From IMG/VR virus record IMGVR_UViG_2734482593_000003: a stretch of 5,833 bases of DNA; one strand, given 5' to 3'. This document shows, piece by piece, positions 1-5,833 of the stretch (position 1 is the first letter of the stretch; every line of letters begins with the position of its first letter). This stretch comes from a virus (taxonomy: Duplodnaviria > Heunggongvirae > Uroviricota > Caudoviricetes). The notes under the pieces are model-generated. The model was not told the origin of the DNA. It did no database searches and saw nothing but the letters and a program-made list of their open reading frames with translations. The translations under genes and the position numbers were made by a program.

Positions 1-17
1 GCCTGTCCAATGTGCAT

Positions 18-50
18 AAAAAAATCCGGAAACAAGTGAGCGTTTCCGGA
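18..50 (-). terminator. Rho-independent terminator immediately downstream of the portal gene
   Basis: Perfect 9-bp inverted repeat TCCGGAAAC (25-33) / GTTTCCGGA (42-50) with an 8-nt loop. On the minus-strand RNA the hairpin is followed by seven U (plus-strand A run 18-24). The plus-strand flank after the hairpin is only TTCTT, so it is mainly a minus-strand terminator. Confidence 0.6.
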
Positions 51-84
51 TTCTTACACAGCCACTGGATCGGTCAACTGATCC

Positions 85-1241
85 TTAACTGATCGGCATT
101 ACACCACCGGGACGCGGATTCATATCTTCCAGGTCGCGGCAGTCATTGGAAGAGTAAATTCCCCAGTTGATCCCGGTGGCGTAGGCTTCAAAACGGGACT
201 TCATATCCCCGCGCAGTAACGCCCCGGCGTTAAATTTGGCGTAATAAACGCCCTGCTTACTTTTTCGTACCAGTCCGGTGTTGATCCGCTGTTCGATGCG
301 GGTCAGATACGGCACCAGTGAATAGTTGATAAATCCCAGCCCCAGCTCTTCGATATTGTTGAAGGTGGCGCGATCGGTGTTCTGCACCATGTGCAACGGC
401 ACCCGGAACAGACGACAGATTTCTTCCAGCTGAAACTTGCGGGTTTCCAGGAACTGACTGTCCTCGGCGTTCAGCGCCATCGACTTCCAGTCCAGCCCCA
501 TTTCCAGAATCATCGGGCGGTGAGCATTGCCAAGCCCCGTGTGACACTCCTCAAAATCTTTCTTCAGACGCTCGTAAGCATCCGGCGTGAGCTTTTGTTC
601 CGTACGCAACACACCGGATGTCACCGCACCATTACTAAACAACCTGGCACCGTGCTCCTCGGTTGCCGCTGCCAGTGAAATGGCCTCACGCGCATACGCA
701 ATGGGATTCAGCCCGACAAGTCCATCCAGCGTCAGGGTGCGCACATGCCAGATTTCATTCTGGGTCAACACATCCACGGAACCATCCGGAAACGTCACCT
801 GATAAACCGGCTGCCACTGGCTGTTCAGCTTCGGTTCCACACAGCCCGGATCTATCGGAAGAAGCTCCACCACTTCTCCCAGTGCCTTTACCTTGTAGGC
901 GTAAAAATTCCCCCGTAGACACAGGCAGACAATAACCAGCTCCCAGAATTCCTGCGGTGTCATGTAGCCATTAGGTTTTGCCGAAACCAACTTATGCAGT
1001 CGTTCATCCACCGCCCGTGTTTTCAGGGTACCGCTGATTTTGTAGAGACTGCAGGGCAGCATACCAACAGACTCTGCCAGCACCCTGACGCAAGAATAGA
1101 CCGCCGTCAGGCGCATGGCCCGCTGGCTACTGATCCGCTTTCCGGTATAGGTGTCGTATGACAGCCCGATAGCATCAGCAGTTCTGCTGGCGTGGTCACC
1201 GGCACATCGCTTTTTCGTTGAAATAATCCCGAAAAGAACAC
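85..1241 (-). CDS. Phage portal protein (HK97 family); reading frame apparently interrupted by a 1-nt frameshift near 1164-1168 (possible pseudogene or sequencing error)
   Basis: The 85..1332 ORF contains the portal motif (AMRLTAVYSCVRVLAESVGMLPCSLYK) and ends at TAA 87..85. That frame has no ATG/GTG/TTG between the upstream small ORF stop (1241) and Met73 (ATG 1116..1114); its only upstream start is TTG 1332, with no SD, inside the small ORF. A different frame has GTG 1241..1239 with GGAGG 6 nt upstream, encoding MFFSGLFQRKSDVPVTTPAELLMLSG... with good codon usage, and stops at TGA 1109..1107. Codon quality switches between the two frames around the GGG run (plus-strand CCC 1165-1167). Confidence 0.8.
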
Positions 1242-1423
1242 TATTTACCTCCGCCGACAGACTGCCGTGTACGGTCGAGATATCGCGCCACCAGCCACGA
1301 CCAGAACAGGCACAGCGCCCCGGCAACAACAAAACCCGCCGGGGGATAAATCAGCCAGGCACCATACGCCAGCAAAAGCGCACCCAGCACGCCCACCAGA
1401 GGCGCGAGAATCAGCATGATCAT
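1241..1423 (-). CDS. Small hydrophobic membrane protein (60 aa, two predicted TM helices), function unknown
   Basis: ATG 1423..1421 lies 5 nt after GAGGT and directly after the terL stop (TAA 1437..1435). Codons are E. coli-typical (CTG/GCG/GGT rich). Sequence [60 protein letters not shown] has two hydrophobic segments and a basic C-terminus. Its TAG stop overlaps the portal GTG (TAGTG). Confidence 0.6.
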
Positions 1424-1434
1424 AATTACCTCAG

Positions 1435-3168
1435 TTAAAGCGAGCGGATCCCGTAGGACTCAATGTGGTCAGACAGCGTGTCTTCTTTCTCGTACAGCAT
1501 GGCTCTGCCAACCGCCATAATCAGCGCAACTGCACCATCGATTTTGTTTTCCGCCTGCTCTTTGACGGGTTTCACCACATCATCGTTACCCGGCATGTTT
1601 TTGCCGACCACGTTGCCGATACACCAGGTCATGATGGGATTGCCGTCATGATGAAAACGTCCCGATTCAATCGCTGCTTCCAGCTCTTTCATCGGATCGG
1701 ACATATTGGTGAAGTTCTGGACGATAGTGACGGGATTCAGGTCTTCATCAGCAAGGTCATGTGACAACCCGGTCGCCCCGAAGGGGTCGATGGGTGACTC
1801 ACTGACCGGGCTGATTTTGTTCGCCGCTTTGGCCTCCTCGAGGATGTAGCGATAATCCACCTCCGCACCATCGGTAACGGTCAGAACGCCCATTTCCACC
1901 CATTTCTGAAAGCGTTCGGCTGTCCGTCGATCTTCATTTTTCTCGACGCTGTACACCGTGTCATACGGTACCCAGAAACGCGGGGCCACACTGTAGTAAT
2001 GCGTTTTACCGTCAATCTCGCGGGTATAAAGTCGCGCCATGCTGTTCATATCCAGCTTACGCGCCAGGTCAAAGGCCAGAATGCACGGCTGCCCCTCGAA
2101 CTGCTCAAGGGTCAGTGATTTATCCTCGCAGCTCTGCCAGCTCACCAAGTTGAAATACGCCGAACGCGCCGACACCCAGATATTGAGGTGTTTTGTTTTA
2201 AAGACGTTTGCCAGACGGGCGTTATTTTTCGCACGCTGCTGCTGACTTAACAAAAATTCGCGATAAACCGACACGCCAATATTTGGATTGGCTTTTTCCA
2301 GCACCTGCGGGCCGGTCCAGTCGTCACCTTCATCAACGGTATAGATGATCCCGAACAGTTCATCGTTAGGCACCGAGCCGTTGAGCATCTCGATGACTTC
2401 CCGCCGCTTGTCGTAGCACGGCCCCTCAATGTTGTACCCGGCGGTGGTGATGGCCCACATCAGTGGCTGACGTCGCGCCCCCATCCCGGTAAGCATTGTG
2501 GTATAAAGCGCATCGGTGGCATGCTCGTGATATTCATCAACCACGGCACAGTGGGGTGATGAACCATCACCTGGGTTGCCGATCAGCGGTTCAAACCGCG
2601 CGCCATCCTCCGGACGGTTCATGTTTGAGGCGTTAACCTCAATCCCGAACGCTTCCGTCAGCATGGGTGTGCGTTTACACATCAGTCGCGCCGGGCGAAA
2701 GACTTCCCACGCCTGTTTCTCTGTCGTGGCACCGGAATACACTTCCGCGCCAAACTCGTTATCACAGGCAAAACAATACAGGGCAACACCGGCAGAGATT
2801 GCTGATTTGCCGTTCTTACGGGGGATTTCGGTGTACACCTCCCGGAAGCGGCGCAACCGGGTGCCTTTATTGACCCAGCCAAACGCACAGCAGATCACAA
2901 ATAGCTGCCACGGCTCCAGCGTGATGGGCATCCGTTTGAATGCCCACTCCCCCTTGGTGTGCGGCAACAGCTGAATAAATTTCGCGGCCCGTTCAGCCAG
3001 GTCCTTGTCGAAGCGGTAACGAAACGACTTACTTTTTTCCGCCATCAGGTCATCAAGATGGCGCTGGCAGGCCTGAATCACAAACTGGCAGGCAACAATC
3101 TTTCCGCGCACGACATCCCGGGCATACTGATTTGCAGCATTTACGTTGGGGTAAGATTTCCGGCTCAT
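1435..3168 (-). CDS. terL: Phage terminase large subunit (577 aa)
   Basis: Long ORF with ATG start 3168..3166 in an ATGA overlap with the upstream terS stop. Walker A-like PRKNGKS near the N-terminus, acidic motifs (VVDEYHE) and a C-terminal nuclease-like region. Sits between terS and portal as in HK97-like head modules. Assigned from recalled family features. Confidence 0.95.
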
Positions 3169-3659
3169 GATTCGATAATTTTCAGAAACGGGTTAGTGGC
3201 TTTCTTCTGCCCCGCCAGGCCAATCAGACGCTGGCGGCTGCTGGGGTCGAGTCCGAGCATTGCCCCCGTGCTGCTCATCTCGGACTCCTGTTCTTTTTTG
3301 GCGGTCAGCTCCGGATTTTTGACCCTGCCGCCCATTGCACCGGTGATGGTGTTGCCCTGTATGGCAATATTTTTCACGGCACGTCGCCAGAACTCATAGG
3401 CCACGCACCACCGCTCAAGTACCGCCAGGTCAGTCACGCACAGCAGGCCCTGACCGCAGAGTTCTTTGGTTGTCAGTTGCCACATGATCGTGGCGAGAGG
3501 GAGATCTTCTTCAGCGAACCACTCTGGTGGCTCAACACCTTTGATGGGCGTAAAAACAGGTTCATCTTTGTTCAGGGCTCGCTTGCCGGGGTTTCCGGCC
3601 AGCGCCTTGCGCGCCGTTGGCTTGGGGCGACGCCCGGAACGCCCCGCCGTTCCAGCCAT
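3165..3659 (-). CDS. terS: Phage terminase small subunit, P27 family (164 aa)
   Basis: N-terminus [27 protein letters not shown] is characteristic of P27-family small terminase subunits. I chose ATG 3659..3657, which has AGGAG 8 nt upstream, over the GTG at 3668 used by the ORF track. Stop TGA 3167..3165 overlaps the terL ATG. Confidence 0.85.
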
Positions 3660-3780
3660 ATGCGGCACTCCTGGTTAAATTTCATTTTTCGCGGGTATAA
3701 AAAAACGATGGGGCGGGCAGTCCGGAAGACGTCAGGTCACAGGGATTTGCCCCGCCCCTCCCTACAAGTGAGAATAATTA
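3660..3780. other. Putative cos / packaging-recognition region between the HNH and terS genes
   Basis: 121-bp intergenic region in the position where HK97-like phages carry cos (HNH gene - cos - terS). Contains a perfect 8-bp GC inverted repeat GGGGCGGG (3710-3717) / CCCGCCCC (3751-3758) separated by 33 bp, flanked by A/T-rich tracts. Assignment is by position and composition only. Confidence 0.4.
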
Positions 3781-4131
3781 TCACCGGATTCGTTCGCGCG
3801 CTGTTTTCGCTTTATGGCAGGGCCAGCACAGACTCTGCAGGTTGCTGTCTGCGTCTGTTCCGCCATGCGCTTTCGGGATGATGTGGTCGACGGTTTTCGC
3901 CTCGCTCACCACACCGACACGCAGACACAACTGACACAGACCTTTATCGCGCTTCAGAATACGGGCACGAATCACCGTCCATTTTGAGCCATAGCCACGC
4001 TGGTGGCGGCTCAGTCCGCGCTGGTGCTGCACCCAGCCTTCACCGCGATGTTTATCGCAGTAACCCGAACTGTCTGTGGTTGTACCTGCACATCCACGCT
4101 TACGGCAGGCACGTGGGATTAGTGATGGCAT
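3781..4131 (-). CDS. HNH endonuclease, phage packaging-associated (116 aa)
   Basis: ATG 4131..4129 with GAGGT 7 nt upstream. Cys-rich zinc-finger-like N-terminus (CRKRGCAG...C) and HNH motif DHIIPKAHGGTDADSNLQSLCWPCH. Located directly upstream of terS, as HK97 gp74. Confidence 0.9.
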   Translation of the reverse strand: MPSLIPRACRKRGCAGTTTDSSGYCDKHRGEGWVQHQRGLSRHQRGYGSKWTVIRARILKRDKGLCQLCLRVGVVSEAKTVDHIIPKAHGGTDADSNLQSLCWPCHKAKTARERIR

Positions 4132-4173: not shown

Positions 4174-4521
4174 CTACTTAATGCACTGAGTGCGGATATA
4201 CTCCTGTGCCCCTTCCAGTTGCATCTGCATCGTCATCAGCCGCTCTCTGAGGGTGAAATAATCCCGTTCAGCGGTGTCTGCCAGTCGGGGGCTGGTTGCA
4301 TTATCCACGCCGGAGGCGGTGGTGGCTTCACGCACTGACTGACAGACTGCTTTGATGTGCAACCGACGACGACCAGCGGCAACATCAGCGCGCAGAGTTT
4401 CATTTTCAGCTTTCGCAACTTTGTAGGTAATGGCGTTATCACGGTAATGATTAACAGCCCATGACAGGCAGACGATGATGCAGATAACCAGAGCGGAGAT
4501 AATCGCGGTGACTCTGCTCAT
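4174..4521 (-). CDS. Rz: Rz i-spanin (inner-membrane spanin subunit), shortened variant (115 aa)
   Basis: From ATG 4521..4519, which overlaps the R stop as ATGA, the product [34 protein letters not shown]... matches lambda Rz as I recall it through residue 34, then resumes at AKAEN...[25 protein letters not shown]. About 39 residues of the periplasmic coiled coil are absent relative to the 153-aa lambda Rz. The ORF track starts 4 codons earlier at GTG 4533. Confidence 0.85.
4236..4403 (-). CDS. Rz1: Rz1 o-spanin (outer-membrane lipoprotein subunit), embedded in the +1 frame of Rz
   Basis: Near-identical to lambda Rz1 as recalled: lipobox LVVVGC followed by [43 protein letters not shown] 4403..4401 is taken as the start; alternative starts are TTG 4418 (the position aligning to lambda Met1) or GTG 4442 (ORF track). 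Confidence 0.8.
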
Positions 4522-5015
4522 TGCTGCCCCCACAAACAGACTTCACGCTCAATCTCACGACGGGTCATCAGCCCTTTCCATTGCTTACCGCCAGCATATG
4601 TCCAGCGACGTAGCTGGTCACATGCGCCTTTGATATCGCCCTGGTTTATTTTGCGAAGAAGCGTCGATGTTCTGAAATTGCCAGCGCCCACGTTGTAAAC
4701 GAACGAGTAAAGAGCGCCGCGCGTTGTTTCCGGTATATCGACTTTGATGTACGGGTTAATTTGTCTGGCGACAGTGGCAAGGTCTTTATTCAGGAGGGCT
4801 TTGCATTCTGCTTCGGTATACGTTTTACCGAGCATGATGTCTTTTCCGGTGTGTCCGTGACATACAGTCCATACACCAATGATATCTTTGTATGGTATGT
4901 AGCTGACACCTTCCAGACCATCGTTACCACCTGGGCCAGTGATTAACACAGATGCTATAGCAACAGCCCCACCACCAATAGCAGCTGCAACAGCCTTGCG
5001 TAATGATGGCGACAT
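4518..5015 (-). CDS. R: SAR endolysin (phage 21 R-type lysozyme, 165 aa)
   Basis: Near-identical to the phage 21 endolysin as recalled. Gly/Ala-rich N-terminal signal-arrest-release segment ([24 protein letters not shown]), followed by catalytic Glu/Asp/Thr spacing (GLEGVSY...[12 protein letters not shown]). ATG 5015..5013 overlaps the S stop as TAATG. Confidence 0.95.
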
Positions 5016-5230
5016 TATTCACCTCTCGCAGCCTTACGCTTGTCTTCTCTTATTTTGAAATACAGATTTGTCAGATAAGTCAGAAGCCCCAGAAGCAGAC
5101 TTCCCAGCACACCAATCGCAGCCCACTGTGATGGACTGACCTGATCCAACCACTGCAAAAACCAGTAGCCGGCACTGCCGGCGGAGGTGCCGTAGGCAAT
5201 GCCTGTTGATATTTTTTCCATCTGATACAT
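5015..5230 (-). CDS. S: Pinholin, phage 21 S-type (S21/EssD family), dual-start (71 and 68 aa forms)
   Basis: [71 protein letters not shown]: two TM helices and a basic C-terminus, matching S21/EssD as recalled. Two in-frame ATGs at 5230 and 5221 (Met1 and Met4) give the dual-start motif. G-rich SD-like sequence lies upstream. Confidence 0.95.
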
Positions 5231-5261: not shown

Positions 5262-5296
5262 AAAGAAAAAAGGCCATCAGCAAAACTCTGATGGCC
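5262..5296 (-). terminator. Rho-independent terminator just upstream of the lysis cassette (candidate late-operon terminator tR')
   Basis: Perfect 9-bp stem GGCCATCAG (5272-5280) / CTGATGGCC (5288-5296) with a 7-nt loop. On the minus-strand RNA it is followed by UUUUUUCUUUC (plus 5271-5261). It lies 32 bp upstream of the S start codon. Confidence 0.6.
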
Positions 5297-5833
5297 TGAA
5301 TCACCTTTACCAATATTGTATGAAAAAACACGCACGACTAATTGACAATAATTTTCATTTCCATTAAAAAAGATCGCGTAGCATTCTTAATTCATGAGGA
5401 ACTTTACCCGCCAGCAATCTGAGTAGCGAAAGCTGTTCATCCCCAATGTTTTTGCTGGCGGGTCCTTTTTTCTACGGTCCTCCTCCCCGGAGGGGGGCAT
5501 TTCATTATTTTTCTAATCGTTACTGGTGAGAAGGCGGAAGAAAAAGCCAGTTCTTCGCCCCTAAATAACAGCATGATTCCAGTCCATGCAAAATCTGATT
5601 TCCAGCTCACACATACCGAGCGCTGTACAAAAAACCGCCAGCCAAGGCAGTTAAGAGTGTGTTCCCGGGGTTTGCTTAGAATATTTTGTAAGTTGTCCGA
5701 AGAGATATTTACAACACCAGAATGATGCATTATCAGTCCCCTGCCAGAGGTTCACTACGTAACCTGACCGACAATGAAGTGGCACACTGAATTTGGCCAC
5801 CTGAACAGAGGTGATATGCTCACCTCAGAACAA

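What the first reader, a model, noticed from the sequence alone, without database searches (positions are those of the whole stretch)
4380..4440. Rz i-spanin carries an in-frame deletion of about 39 codons ending at the Rz1 start
Relative to lambda Rz (153 aa, as recalled), this Rz is identical through ...NAITYK (residue 34) and then jumps to AKAEN...RRRLHIKAV, so roughly residues 35-73 of the periplasmic coiled coil are missing (115 aa total). The junction (about 4416-4419) coincides with the position where lambda Rz1 initiates: the lambda-equivalent start codon is TTG here (4418), leaving ATG 4403 as the first Met. Spanin function depends on the coiled-coil length needed to bridge the periplasm, so this may be a non-functional or altered-length spanin. 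Rz1 otherwise looks intact.
Basis: partly seen in the sequence, partly recalled or inferred. Interest (0 to 1): 0.45.

Follow-up and report, generated by a model that had tools for sequence, protein, structure and literature searches.

The report
Broken spanin genes in dead prophage
One isolate's copy of a long-dead Shigella sonnei prophage has lost 117 bases from its Rz/Rz1 outer-membrane lysis genes, which almost certainly disables both proteins; this is ordinary gene decay, not a new kind of lysis protein.

Summary
On the minus strand, Rz (4521..4174) encodes 115 aa. It equals lambda Rz (153 aa) and the Shigella sonnei Ss046 allele (154 aa) except that codons 35-73 are missing and residue 74 is D->V. 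At DNA level, 118 nt are replaced by a single T at window 4418.

The lesion hits both nested genes.
- In Rz it removes 39 of the 61 residues of coiled-coil CC1, including L64-A73, the most mutation-sensitive stretch of lambda Rz.
- In Rz1 it deletes the AAGGAG ribosome-binding site and turns the ATG start into TTG.

The allele is private.
- The junction is absent from 5,426 complete E. coli genomes, from the phage records, and from the viral, species-representative genome and metagenome contig collections.
- The 115-aa protein is absent from a collection of about 15 billion proteins.
- The intact 154-aa allele is seen on at least 999 contigs.

Apart from this lesion, two substitutions and its last 57 nt, the window is identical to Ss046. 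There the locus is a prophage remnant: the portal gene is frameshifted and cut by IS4, and no head or tail genes follow.

Verdict: a real, very probably inactivating deletion under relaxed selection. Low interest. No function was tested.

The parts
4174..4521 (-). Rz i-spanin gene, deletion allele. It encodes 115 aa and equals the Ss046 154-aa Rz with residues 35-73 deleted and D74V.
   Evidence: ORF list. Alignments with lambda, FDAARGOS_944 and Ss046. The Pfam PF03245 match covers only profile positions 47-125 of 126, against 1-125 for the intact allele.
4417..4419 (-). Deletion junction. G4419 is the last base of the left flank. T4418 is an orphan base found in no relative. T4417 is the first base of the right flank. 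In Ss046, 118 nt stand in place of T4418.
   Evidence: No full-length allele carries this T.
4236..4418 (-). Rz1 o-spanin reading frame, nested in the +1 frame of Rz. The coding sequence for the signal peptide, lipobox (VVGC), Cys20, Cys29 and PPPPP stretch is intact. The start codon is TTG instead of ATG, and the AAGGAG ribosome-binding site is deleted. The next ATG is at 4403-4401, and an upstream in-frame GTG lies at 4442-4440.
   Evidence: Translation and anti-Shine-Dalgarno pairing energies. Pfam PF06085 scores 71.1 bits.
4518..5015 (-). SAR endolysin of the phage 21 / RrrD type, 165 aa. It looks intact: the N-terminal SAR helix and E35, D44 and T50 are present.
   Evidence: PF00959, 154.5 bits. 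The residues are read directly from the translation. The stretch is identical to Ss046.
5015..5230 (-). Class II holin of the phage 21 S type, 71 aa, with the dual-start motif M1/M4 retained.
   Evidence: PF04971, 121.4 bits.
5271..5297 (-). Terminator-like hairpin followed by a T run, just upstream of the holin. This is the position of the late-operon terminator that Q antitermination reads through.
   Evidence: Its role is inferred from position only.
3781..4131 (-). HNH endonuclease gene (116 aa), immediately downstream of Rz.
   Evidence: PF01844. It is annotated as HNH endonuclease in relatives.
1435..3668 (-). Terminase small subunit (3668..3165, P27 family) and large subunit (3168..1435, 577 aa). 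Both frames are open.
   Evidence: The exact TerL protein is indexed in 4305 blocks of the assembly collection.
102..1241 (-). Portal pseudogene. It has a 1-nt deletion near codon 21 relative to the intact 413-aa portal of E. coli BE311, and its 3' end is cut off by IS4 at about codon 393. Both lesions are shared with Ss046.
   Evidence: Gene calls of 343 aa in Ss046-type loci.
1..101 (-). End of an IS4 element, comprising the terminal repeat and the first codons of the transposase. It interrupts the portal gene.
   Evidence: 95-97% identity to many IS4 copies. An IS4 transposase is called directly after the portal in Ss046-type loci.
5777..5833 (.). End of a multicopy IS3-family element. It is not present at this site in Ss046 or in the EIEC relatives.
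   Evidence: up to 24 places per genome; 'IS3 family transposase' lies under one match.

Best explanation
This is a genuine, private loss-of-function deletion in the nested Rz/Rz1 spanin genes of a cryptic lambdoid prophage remnant of Shigella sonnei. The remnant carries a phage-21-type lysis cassette.

A single event replaced 118 nt by one T. That lesion damages both subunits.
- Rz keeps its membrane anchor, the last 14 residues of CC1, the linker, CC2 and both cysteines. It loses residues 35-73, which is 39 of the 61 CC1 residues. The lost part includes the L64-A73 segment that lambda genetics shows to be indispensable.
- Rz1 loses its Shine-Dalgarno sequence, and its ATG becomes TTG. The outer-membrane lipoprotein should therefore be made poorly or not at all.

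Holin and SAR endolysin remain intact. If the late operon were ever expressed, cells would still be killed and their wall degraded, but the final outer-membrane disruption step would fail.

The prophage had already lost its portal and all downstream virion genes. The spanin was therefore under no selection, and the deletion is neutral decay.

Shown: the deletion, its exact anatomy, its rarity, the loss of translation signals and the degraded context. Inferred: loss of function, and neutrality.
For: Anatomy of the deletion.

Pfam: the Rz profile is matched only from position 47 of 126, against position 1 for the intact allele.

Lambda genetics (PMC5295617):
- CC1 is residues 27-87.
- Missense mutations cluster at 57-88.
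- L64-A73 is the most sensitive stretch.
- R57C, R59C, V61A, A62P and L64H/P/R are lysis-defective.
- Rz1 M1K is lysis-defective, so the downstream Mets do not rescue function in lambda.

Translation signals: the AAGGAG of Ss046 and lambda pairs with the anti-SD at -8.3 kcal/mol. In the window the value is +0.3 upstream of the TTG and -0.6 upstream of ATG 4403.

Rarity:
- No complete E. coli genome has the junction in one piece, and no phage record does.
- Junction k-mers are absent from the genome, viral and metagenome contig collections.
- The exact 115-aa and 119-aa products are not in the 15-billion protein collection.
- The intact allele is seen on 999 or more contigs.
- Family length is fixed at 154 aa in 113 of the 120 best clusters.

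Context:
- The window is 100% identical to Ss046 over 4417 nt, and has 2 mismatches over a further 1358 nt.
- The portal is frameshifted and cut by IS4.
- In Ss046-type loci, insertion sequences and then chromosomal genes (BamE and an SMC_N-domain gene in five of the seven long loci; other chromosomal genes in two) follow the portal, with no head or tail genes.
Against: - No functional test was possible.
- Length alone does not condemn the protein. Natural two-component spanins range from 62 to 300 periplasmic residues.
- TTG is a usable, if weak, start codon. An in-frame GTG at 4442 would give a plausible longer lipoprotein signal peptide. Some Rz1 may therefore be made.
- The deletion is in frame and keeps both Rz cysteines, so a folded product is possible.
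- The window looks like a short-read contig bounded by IS copies. I could not inspect reads, so an assembly error cannot be formally excluded.
Confidence: 0.8

Rival explanations
1. The short Rz is a functional, or partly functional, mini-spanin. The remaining 22 residues of CC1 together with the linker and CC2 would still pair with Rz1. Rz1 would be translated at a low level from TTG 4418, ATG 4403 or GTG 4442.
For: - The deletion is in frame.
- The TMD, CC2, C60 and C113 (lambda C99 and C152) are retained, as is the whole mature Rz1.
- Natural spanin pairs can have as few as 62 periplasmic residues.
- The proximal part of CC1 tolerates proline substitutions at Q36 and A50.
- One natural 147-aa relative lacks a heptad there.
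Against: - The deleted block contains every residue of L64-A73, plus R57, R59, V61 and A62. In lambda, single substitutions at R57, R59, V61, A62 and L64 already abolish lysis.
- 39 is not a multiple of 7, so the heptad register is broken. The one tolerated natural length variant removes exactly 7 residues.
- Rz1 has no Shine-Dalgarno sequence, and lambda Rz1 M1K is defective.
- The allele was never seen again among thousands of assemblies.
Confidence: 0.07
2. The deletion is an assembly or sequencing artefact, and the isolate really carries the normal 154-aa allele.
For: - The window is bounded by IS ends on both sides, as short-read contigs are.
- The allele is unique.
Against: - The breakpoints share at most 1-2 nt of homology. 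There is no long repeat or shared k-mer that could make an assembler collapse 118 nt.
- The junction carries a base found in no relative. That is typical of a real imprecise deletion rather than a graph shortcut.
- The rest of the contig is clean, with 0 mismatches in 4417 nt.
Confidence: 0.1
3. The phage-21/DLP12-type Rz family is naturally about 115 aa and nothing is missing.
For: None found.
Against: - Phage 21, 434, lambda, DLP12 rzpD and all near-identical E. coli and Shigella loci carry the extra 117 nt.
- 113 of the 120 best homolog clusters are 154 aa.
- The short cluster members I read (96-137 aa were listed; the six read were 115-137 aa) are N-terminally cut contig-edge fragments.
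Confidence: 0.01

Closest known systems
Rz/Rz1 of the Shigella sonnei Ss046 prophage remnant (CP000038.1; 'lysis protein [Shigella sonnei]', 154 aa)
   Same: The DNA is identical on both sides of the lesion. Gene order is the same: holin, SAR endolysin, Rz/Rz1, HNH, TerS, TerL, then a frameshifted portal cut by IS4.
   Different: The window lacks Rz codons 35-73, has D74V, lacks the Rz1 ribosome-binding site and has TTG for the Rz1 ATG. It also has an extra IS3-family insertion at 5777 and two substitutions, at 5731 and 5728.
Bacteriophage lambda Rz/Rz1 embedded two-component spanin (NC_001416 45966-46427 and 46186-46368)
   Same: 89% protein identity over the retained parts. Residues 1-34 are identical. 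Rz1 has the same nested +1 frame, with the same lipobox, Cys29 and PPPPP motif.
   Different: Lambda Rz is 153 aa with a complete CC1 (27-87). Lambda Rz1 starts at an ATG preceded by AAGGAG. The window has neither.
DLP12 rzpD/rzoD and the phage 21 lysis cassette (pinholin S21, SAR endolysin R21, Rz/Rz1)
   Same: The same cassette type. The holin matches Pfam 'Bacteriophage P21 holin S'. The endolysin is RrrD-like with a SAR N-terminus. There is 92-94% DNA identity to the phage 21 and 434 Rz regions.
   Different: Those cassettes have full-length Rz. The window's downstream neighbour is an HNH-terminase module rather than bor.
Natural 147-aa Rz variant (P0005, one E. coli genome)
   Same: An in-frame deletion within CC1 of the same family.
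   Different: It removes exactly one heptad (7 residues) in the mutation-tolerant proximal part of CC1 (about residues 40-46). It leaves residues 57-73 and the Rz1 start region untouched.

Membership tests
Lambda-type i-spanin Rz (Pfam PF03245 Phage_lysis) | Significant match to the family profile | tested here: met
   119.9 bits against a cut-off of 25.4, but only profile positions 47-125 of 126 are matched. The intact Ss046 allele matches 1-125 at 176.7 bits.
Lambda-type i-spanin Rz (Pfam PF03245 Phage_lysis) | N-terminal transmembrane anchor (lambda residues 1-24) | tested here: met
   Residues 1-34 are identical to lambda Rz.
Lambda-type i-spanin Rz (Pfam PF03245 Phage_lysis) | Complete proximal coiled coil CC1 (lambda residues 27-87), including the mutation-sensitive L64-A73 | tested here: not met
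   Residues 35-73 are absent and 74 is D->V, so 22 of 61 CC1 residues remain. Domain limits come from PMC5295617.
Lambda-type i-spanin Rz (Pfam PF03245 Phage_lysis) | Linker, distal coiled coil CC2 and the two disulfide cysteines (lambda C99, C152) | tested here: met
   Window residues 36-115 align without gaps to lambda 75-153. C60 and C113 are conserved.
Lambda-type i-spanin Rz (Pfam PF03245 Phage_lysis) | Supports outer-membrane disruption together with Rz1 (lysis in the presence of Mg2+) | not testable with these tools
   This needs complementation of lambda Rz am / Rz1 am lysogens.
Rz1 o-spanin lipoprotein (Pfam PF06085) | Profile match, lipobox with Cys20, Cys29, and the proline-rich PPPPP region, nested in the +1 frame of Rz | tested here: met
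   71.1 bits against a cut-off of 27.9. The sequence [36 protein letters not shown]... is read.
Rz1 o-spanin lipoprotein (Pfam PF06085) | Own translation start: ATG preceded by a Shine-Dalgarno sequence inside Rz | tested here: not met
   ATG has become TTG and AAGGAG is deleted. Anti-SD pairing is +0.3 and -0.6 kcal/mol, against -8.3 in Ss046 and lambda.
Phage-21-type lysis cassette (class II pinholin plus SAR endolysin plus embedded spanin) | P21-type holin with dual start; SAR endolysin with an N-terminal SAR helix and the E-D-T catalytic residues; gene order S-R-Rz/Rz1 | tested here: met
   PF04971 and PF00959 hits. M1/M4 in the holin and E35/D44/T50 in the endolysin are read.
Functional (inducible) prophage | Intact head, tail and portal genes downstream of the terminase | tested here: not met
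   The portal is frameshifted and cut by IS4. In Ss046-type loci, insertion sequences and then chromosomal genes follow.

The most novel reading that the evidence does not exclude
The 115-aa Rz, with only about 22 residues of CC1, still forms a working spanin with Rz1 translated from a non-ATG, Shine-Dalgarno-less start. That would show that the distal CC1 segment, which lambda genetics marks as essential, can be dispensed with as a block. It would give a natural minimal Rz for studying spanin-mediated membrane fusion.
Probability: 0.04. Interest if true: 0.4.

Novelty: already known. Interest (0 to 1): 0.1.

Why it matters
It matters little beyond correct annotation. Both Rz and Rz1 at this locus should be flagged as pseudogenes or disrupted, not as a 'lysis protein'.

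It is a tidy natural example of a hazard of nested genes: one small deletion knocks out both subunits. It removes the essential coiled-coil segment of the outer gene and the translation signals of the inner gene together.

It also adds one more lesion to a Shigella sonnei prophage remnant that is visibly decaying through IS insertions, a frameshift and now this deletion.

The junction k-mer (CTACAAAGTTGCGAAAGCTG) could serve as a lineage marker if the deletion turns out to be shared by a clade.

Tried and rejected
- Family naturally short: rejected.
- A pre-existing full-length allele with TTG / D74V that would make the deletion a clean 117-nt event: none found. The best full-length hits all carry the A.
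- The same junction elsewhere: exact 33-mer and 20-mer scans of species-representative genomes, the 33-mer in IMG/VR viral contigs and the 20-mer in JGI metagenome contigs all returned nothing. The complete E. coli genomes and the phage records show only two-piece matches spanning the extra 117 nt.
- Exact-protein look-ups of the 115-aa form, the 119-aa (GTG start) form and the 68-aa Rz1-frame product: not on record.
- Flanking repeats that would explain the deletion or an assembly collapse: only 1-2 nt of microhomology. A two-step alternative (111-nt deletion at an AG microhomology, then loss of AGCTGA) gives the same product but is less parsimonious (read).
- tRNA and Rfam scans of the window: nothing. 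The tRNA cluster upstream of the holin in FDAARGOS_944 is not present here.
- FDAARGOS_944 as parent: it matches only from mid-endolysin through Rz and HNH and is mosaic elsewhere. Ss046 is the true near-identical relative.
- Locus L002 could not be read from Python, so I used alignments instead.
- I did not run structure prediction. A monomer model of a dimeric coiled coil would not decide function.

Full report
WHAT IS THERE

The window carries, on its minus strand, a lambdoid late region:
- a phage-21-type class II holin (5230..5015, 71 aa);
- a SAR endolysin (5015..4518, 165 aa);
- Rz (4521..4174) with Rz1 nested in its +1 frame;
- an HNH endonuclease (4131..3781);
- terminase small and large subunits (3668..3165 and 3168..1435);
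- a 60-aa ORF;
- a portal gene.

CHECKING THE OBSERVATION

I fetched lambda Rz from NC_001416. The protein alignment shows identity through K34, then a 39-residue gap, then AKAEN... to the C-terminus. Identity over the retained columns is 89%. The DNA alignment shows a 117-nt gap.

The same 117 nt are present in every phage record that matches the region, including phages 21 and 434 and lambda-like phages. All of these are two-piece matches whose span is about 117 nt longer than the query. The same holds for every matching complete E. coli genome, including records that are 100% identical on both sides.

- the junction is G4419 / T4418 / T4417;
- TTG 4418-4416 sits where relatives have the Rz1 ATG;
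- the next ATG is at 4403-4401.

ORIGIN OF THE WINDOW

The exact large-terminase protein of the window is indexed in 4305 blocks of the assembly collection. The loci returned include Shigella sonnei Ss046, CP000038.1. Compared with Ss046, the reverse complement of the window gives:
- 100% identity over 4417 nt;
- 2 mismatches over another 1358 nt;
- between these two stretches, 118 nt of Ss046 replaced by one T.

In protein terms, the window's Rz equals the Ss046 154-aa Rz with residues 35-73 deleted and D74V. No full-length allele in 5,426 E. coli genomes carries that T. It was therefore created with the deletion: either an imprecise 118-nt deletion with one inserted base, or a 117-nt deletion plus an adjacent A>T change.

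RARITY

- No complete E. coli genome contains the junction in one piece.
- Junction k-mers of 33 and 20 nt are absent from the species-representative genomes. The 33-mer is absent from the viral contigs and the 20-mer from the metagenome contigs.
- The 115-aa product, its 119-aa GTG-start version and the 68-aa Rz1-frame product are not among about 15 billion catalogued proteins.
- The intact Ss046 allele is recorded on at least 999 contigs.
- Among the 120 best homolog clusters, 113 are exactly 154 aa. The rest are contig-edge partials or start/stop variants, plus one 147-aa protein that lacks exactly one heptad in proximal CC1.
- Six of the shorter members of the 90% cluster (115-137 aa) were read, and all are N-terminal fragments, not internal deletions.

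CONSEQUENCES FOR Rz

Cahill et al. (PMC5295617) divide lambda Rz into these domains:
- TMD, residues 1-24;
- CC1, residues 27-87;
- linker L2, residues 89-120;
- CC2, residues 121-150.

About 62% of lysis-defective missense changes fall in residues 57-88. L64-A73 is the most mutation-sensitive stretch. R57C, R59C, V61A, A62P and L64H/P/R each abolish lysis.

The deletion removes residues 35-73. That is all of these positions and 39 of the 61 CC1 residues. It is also not a multiple of seven (5 heptads + 4), so it breaks the heptad phase. This last point is my inference. Pfam agrees with the loss: the window's Rz matches the Phage_lysis profile only from position 47, whereas Ss046 Rz matches from position 1.

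Kongari et al. (PMC6139136) report combined periplasmic lengths of 62 to 300 residues among natural two-component spanins. The roughly 131 residues left here are not too short in themselves.

CONSEQUENCES FOR Rz1

The deleted DNA also contains the AAGGAG that lies 7 nt upstream of the Rz1 ATG in both Ss046 and lambda.

| Site | Pairing with the 16S 3' end (kcal/mol) |
|---|---|
| Ss046 / lambda Rz1 ATG | -8.3 |
| Window TTG 4418 | +0.3 |
| Window ATG 4403 | -0.6 |
| Window in-frame GTG 4442 | -2.4 |

In lambda, Rz1 M1K is lysis-defective, so the internal Met codons do not rescue function.

The mature part of Rz1 is unchanged: the lipobox VVGC, Cys29 and PPPPP are all present. Low-level expression from a non-canonical start cannot be excluded, but normal expression is very unlikely.

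CONTEXT

The portal gene has a 1-nt deletion near codon 21 relative to the intact 413-aa portal of E. coli BE311. It is also cut at about codon 393 by the end of an IS4 element, at window 1-101. Both lesions are shared with Ss046.

In Ss046-type loci, the IS4 element (in most loci a second IS as well) and then chromosomal genes follow the portal. In five of the seven long loci these are BamE and an SMC_N-domain gene; two loci have other chromosomal genes. No protease, capsid or tail genes are present. The element is therefore a prophage remnant that cannot make virions.

The other end of the window (5777-5833) is the terminus of a multicopy IS3-family element that is absent from this site in Ss046. 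A 5.8-kb sequence bounded by IS ends looks like a short-read contig. That is my inference.

INTERPRETATION

The most likely reading (confidence 0.8) is a real, private deletion that inactivates both spanin subunits at once, in a prophage remnant where the spanin is under no selection.

Holin and SAR endolysin remain intact. The endolysin keeps its catalytic E35, D44 and T50, and the holin keeps its dual-start M1/M4 (read). Any residual late expression would still kill the cell but would stop at the spherical-cell stage.

Rival readings:
- A functional mini-spanin (0.07). This is disfavoured by the lambda genetics and the lost translation signals.
- An assembly artefact (0.10). This is disfavoured by the absence of any repeat at the breakpoints and by the novel junction base.
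- A naturally short family (0.01), which is refuted.

No function was tested. Reads or PCR, plus a lambda Rz/Rz1 complementation assay in Mg2+, would settle it.

NOVELTY AND SCORE

The system is the textbook lambda/phage-21 embedded spanin. The only new thing is a mutant allele. It is a neat illustration that a deletion in nested genes can remove the essential domain of one gene and the ribosome-binding site and start codon of the other. It would not surprise a specialist and opens no new question. Interest is 0.1.

Noticed in passing
window 1-101: The window begins inside an IS4 element. The terminal repeat TAATGCCGATCAGTTAAGG is present (recognised from memory). An ATGCACATTGGACAGG... reading frame starts at about window 17, where the transposase gene is called in relatives. 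The element cuts the portal gene about 20 codons before its end. Ss046 has the same insertion.
   Followed up: partly
window 5777-5833: The last 57 nt do not match Ss046 or the EIEC relatives at this site. They match the end of a multicopy IS3-family element, with up to 24 places per E. coli genome, on plasmids as well. This is an isolate-specific IS insertion upstream of the late operon. With IS4 at the other end, the window looks like a short-read contig broken at repeats.
   Followed up: partly
window ~1155-1165 (minus strand), portal gene: There is a 1-nt deletion (GAACT-GCTGATG against GAGCTGGCGGAG in E. coli BE311) near codon 21 of the portal. It splits the gene into a 44-aa ORF (1241..1107) and the main ORF (1332..85). 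Ss046 shares this lesion, and gene callers report a 343-aa portal there.
   Followed up: yes
window 5731 and 5728: These two substitutions, 3 nt apart, are the only point differences from Ss046 outside the Rz lesion (minus strand GATAATGCAT against GATGATTCAT). They destroy the ATG of the 98-aa hypothetical ORF called in Ss046-type loci. They create a new ATG 3 nt downstream, giving the 97-aa ORF 5730..5437.
   Followed up: partly
window 5271-5297 (minus strand): A strong terminator-like hairpin (10 pairs, followed by TTTTTTCTTTC) lies 40 nt upstream of the holin start. This is where lambdoid phages place the late terminator that Q antitermination overrides.
   Followed up: no
window ~3700-3770, between the HNH and TerS genes: A G+C-rich inverted repeat (GGGGCGGGCAGTCCGG...TTTGCCCCGCCCC) sits in the intergenic region between the HNH endonuclease and the small terminase. 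It may be a terminator or part of the cos/packaging region of this HK97-like module.
   Followed up: no
P0005 (homolog from one E. coli genome, 147 aa): This natural Rz variant lacks exactly 7 residues (one heptad) at about positions 40-46, in the mutation-tolerant proximal part of CC1. It contrasts with the 39-residue, out-of-phase deletion in the window.
   Followed up: partly
L002 (E. coli FDAARGOS_944) 3769-4078, compared with window 5523-5832: FDAARGOS_944 is identical to the window from mid-endolysin through Rz and HNH. It carries four tRNA genes (Ile, Lys, Thr, Gly) upstream of its holin and different terminase genes. The lysis module is therefore shared between otherwise mosaic prophages. 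The window has no tRNA genes.
   Followed up: yes
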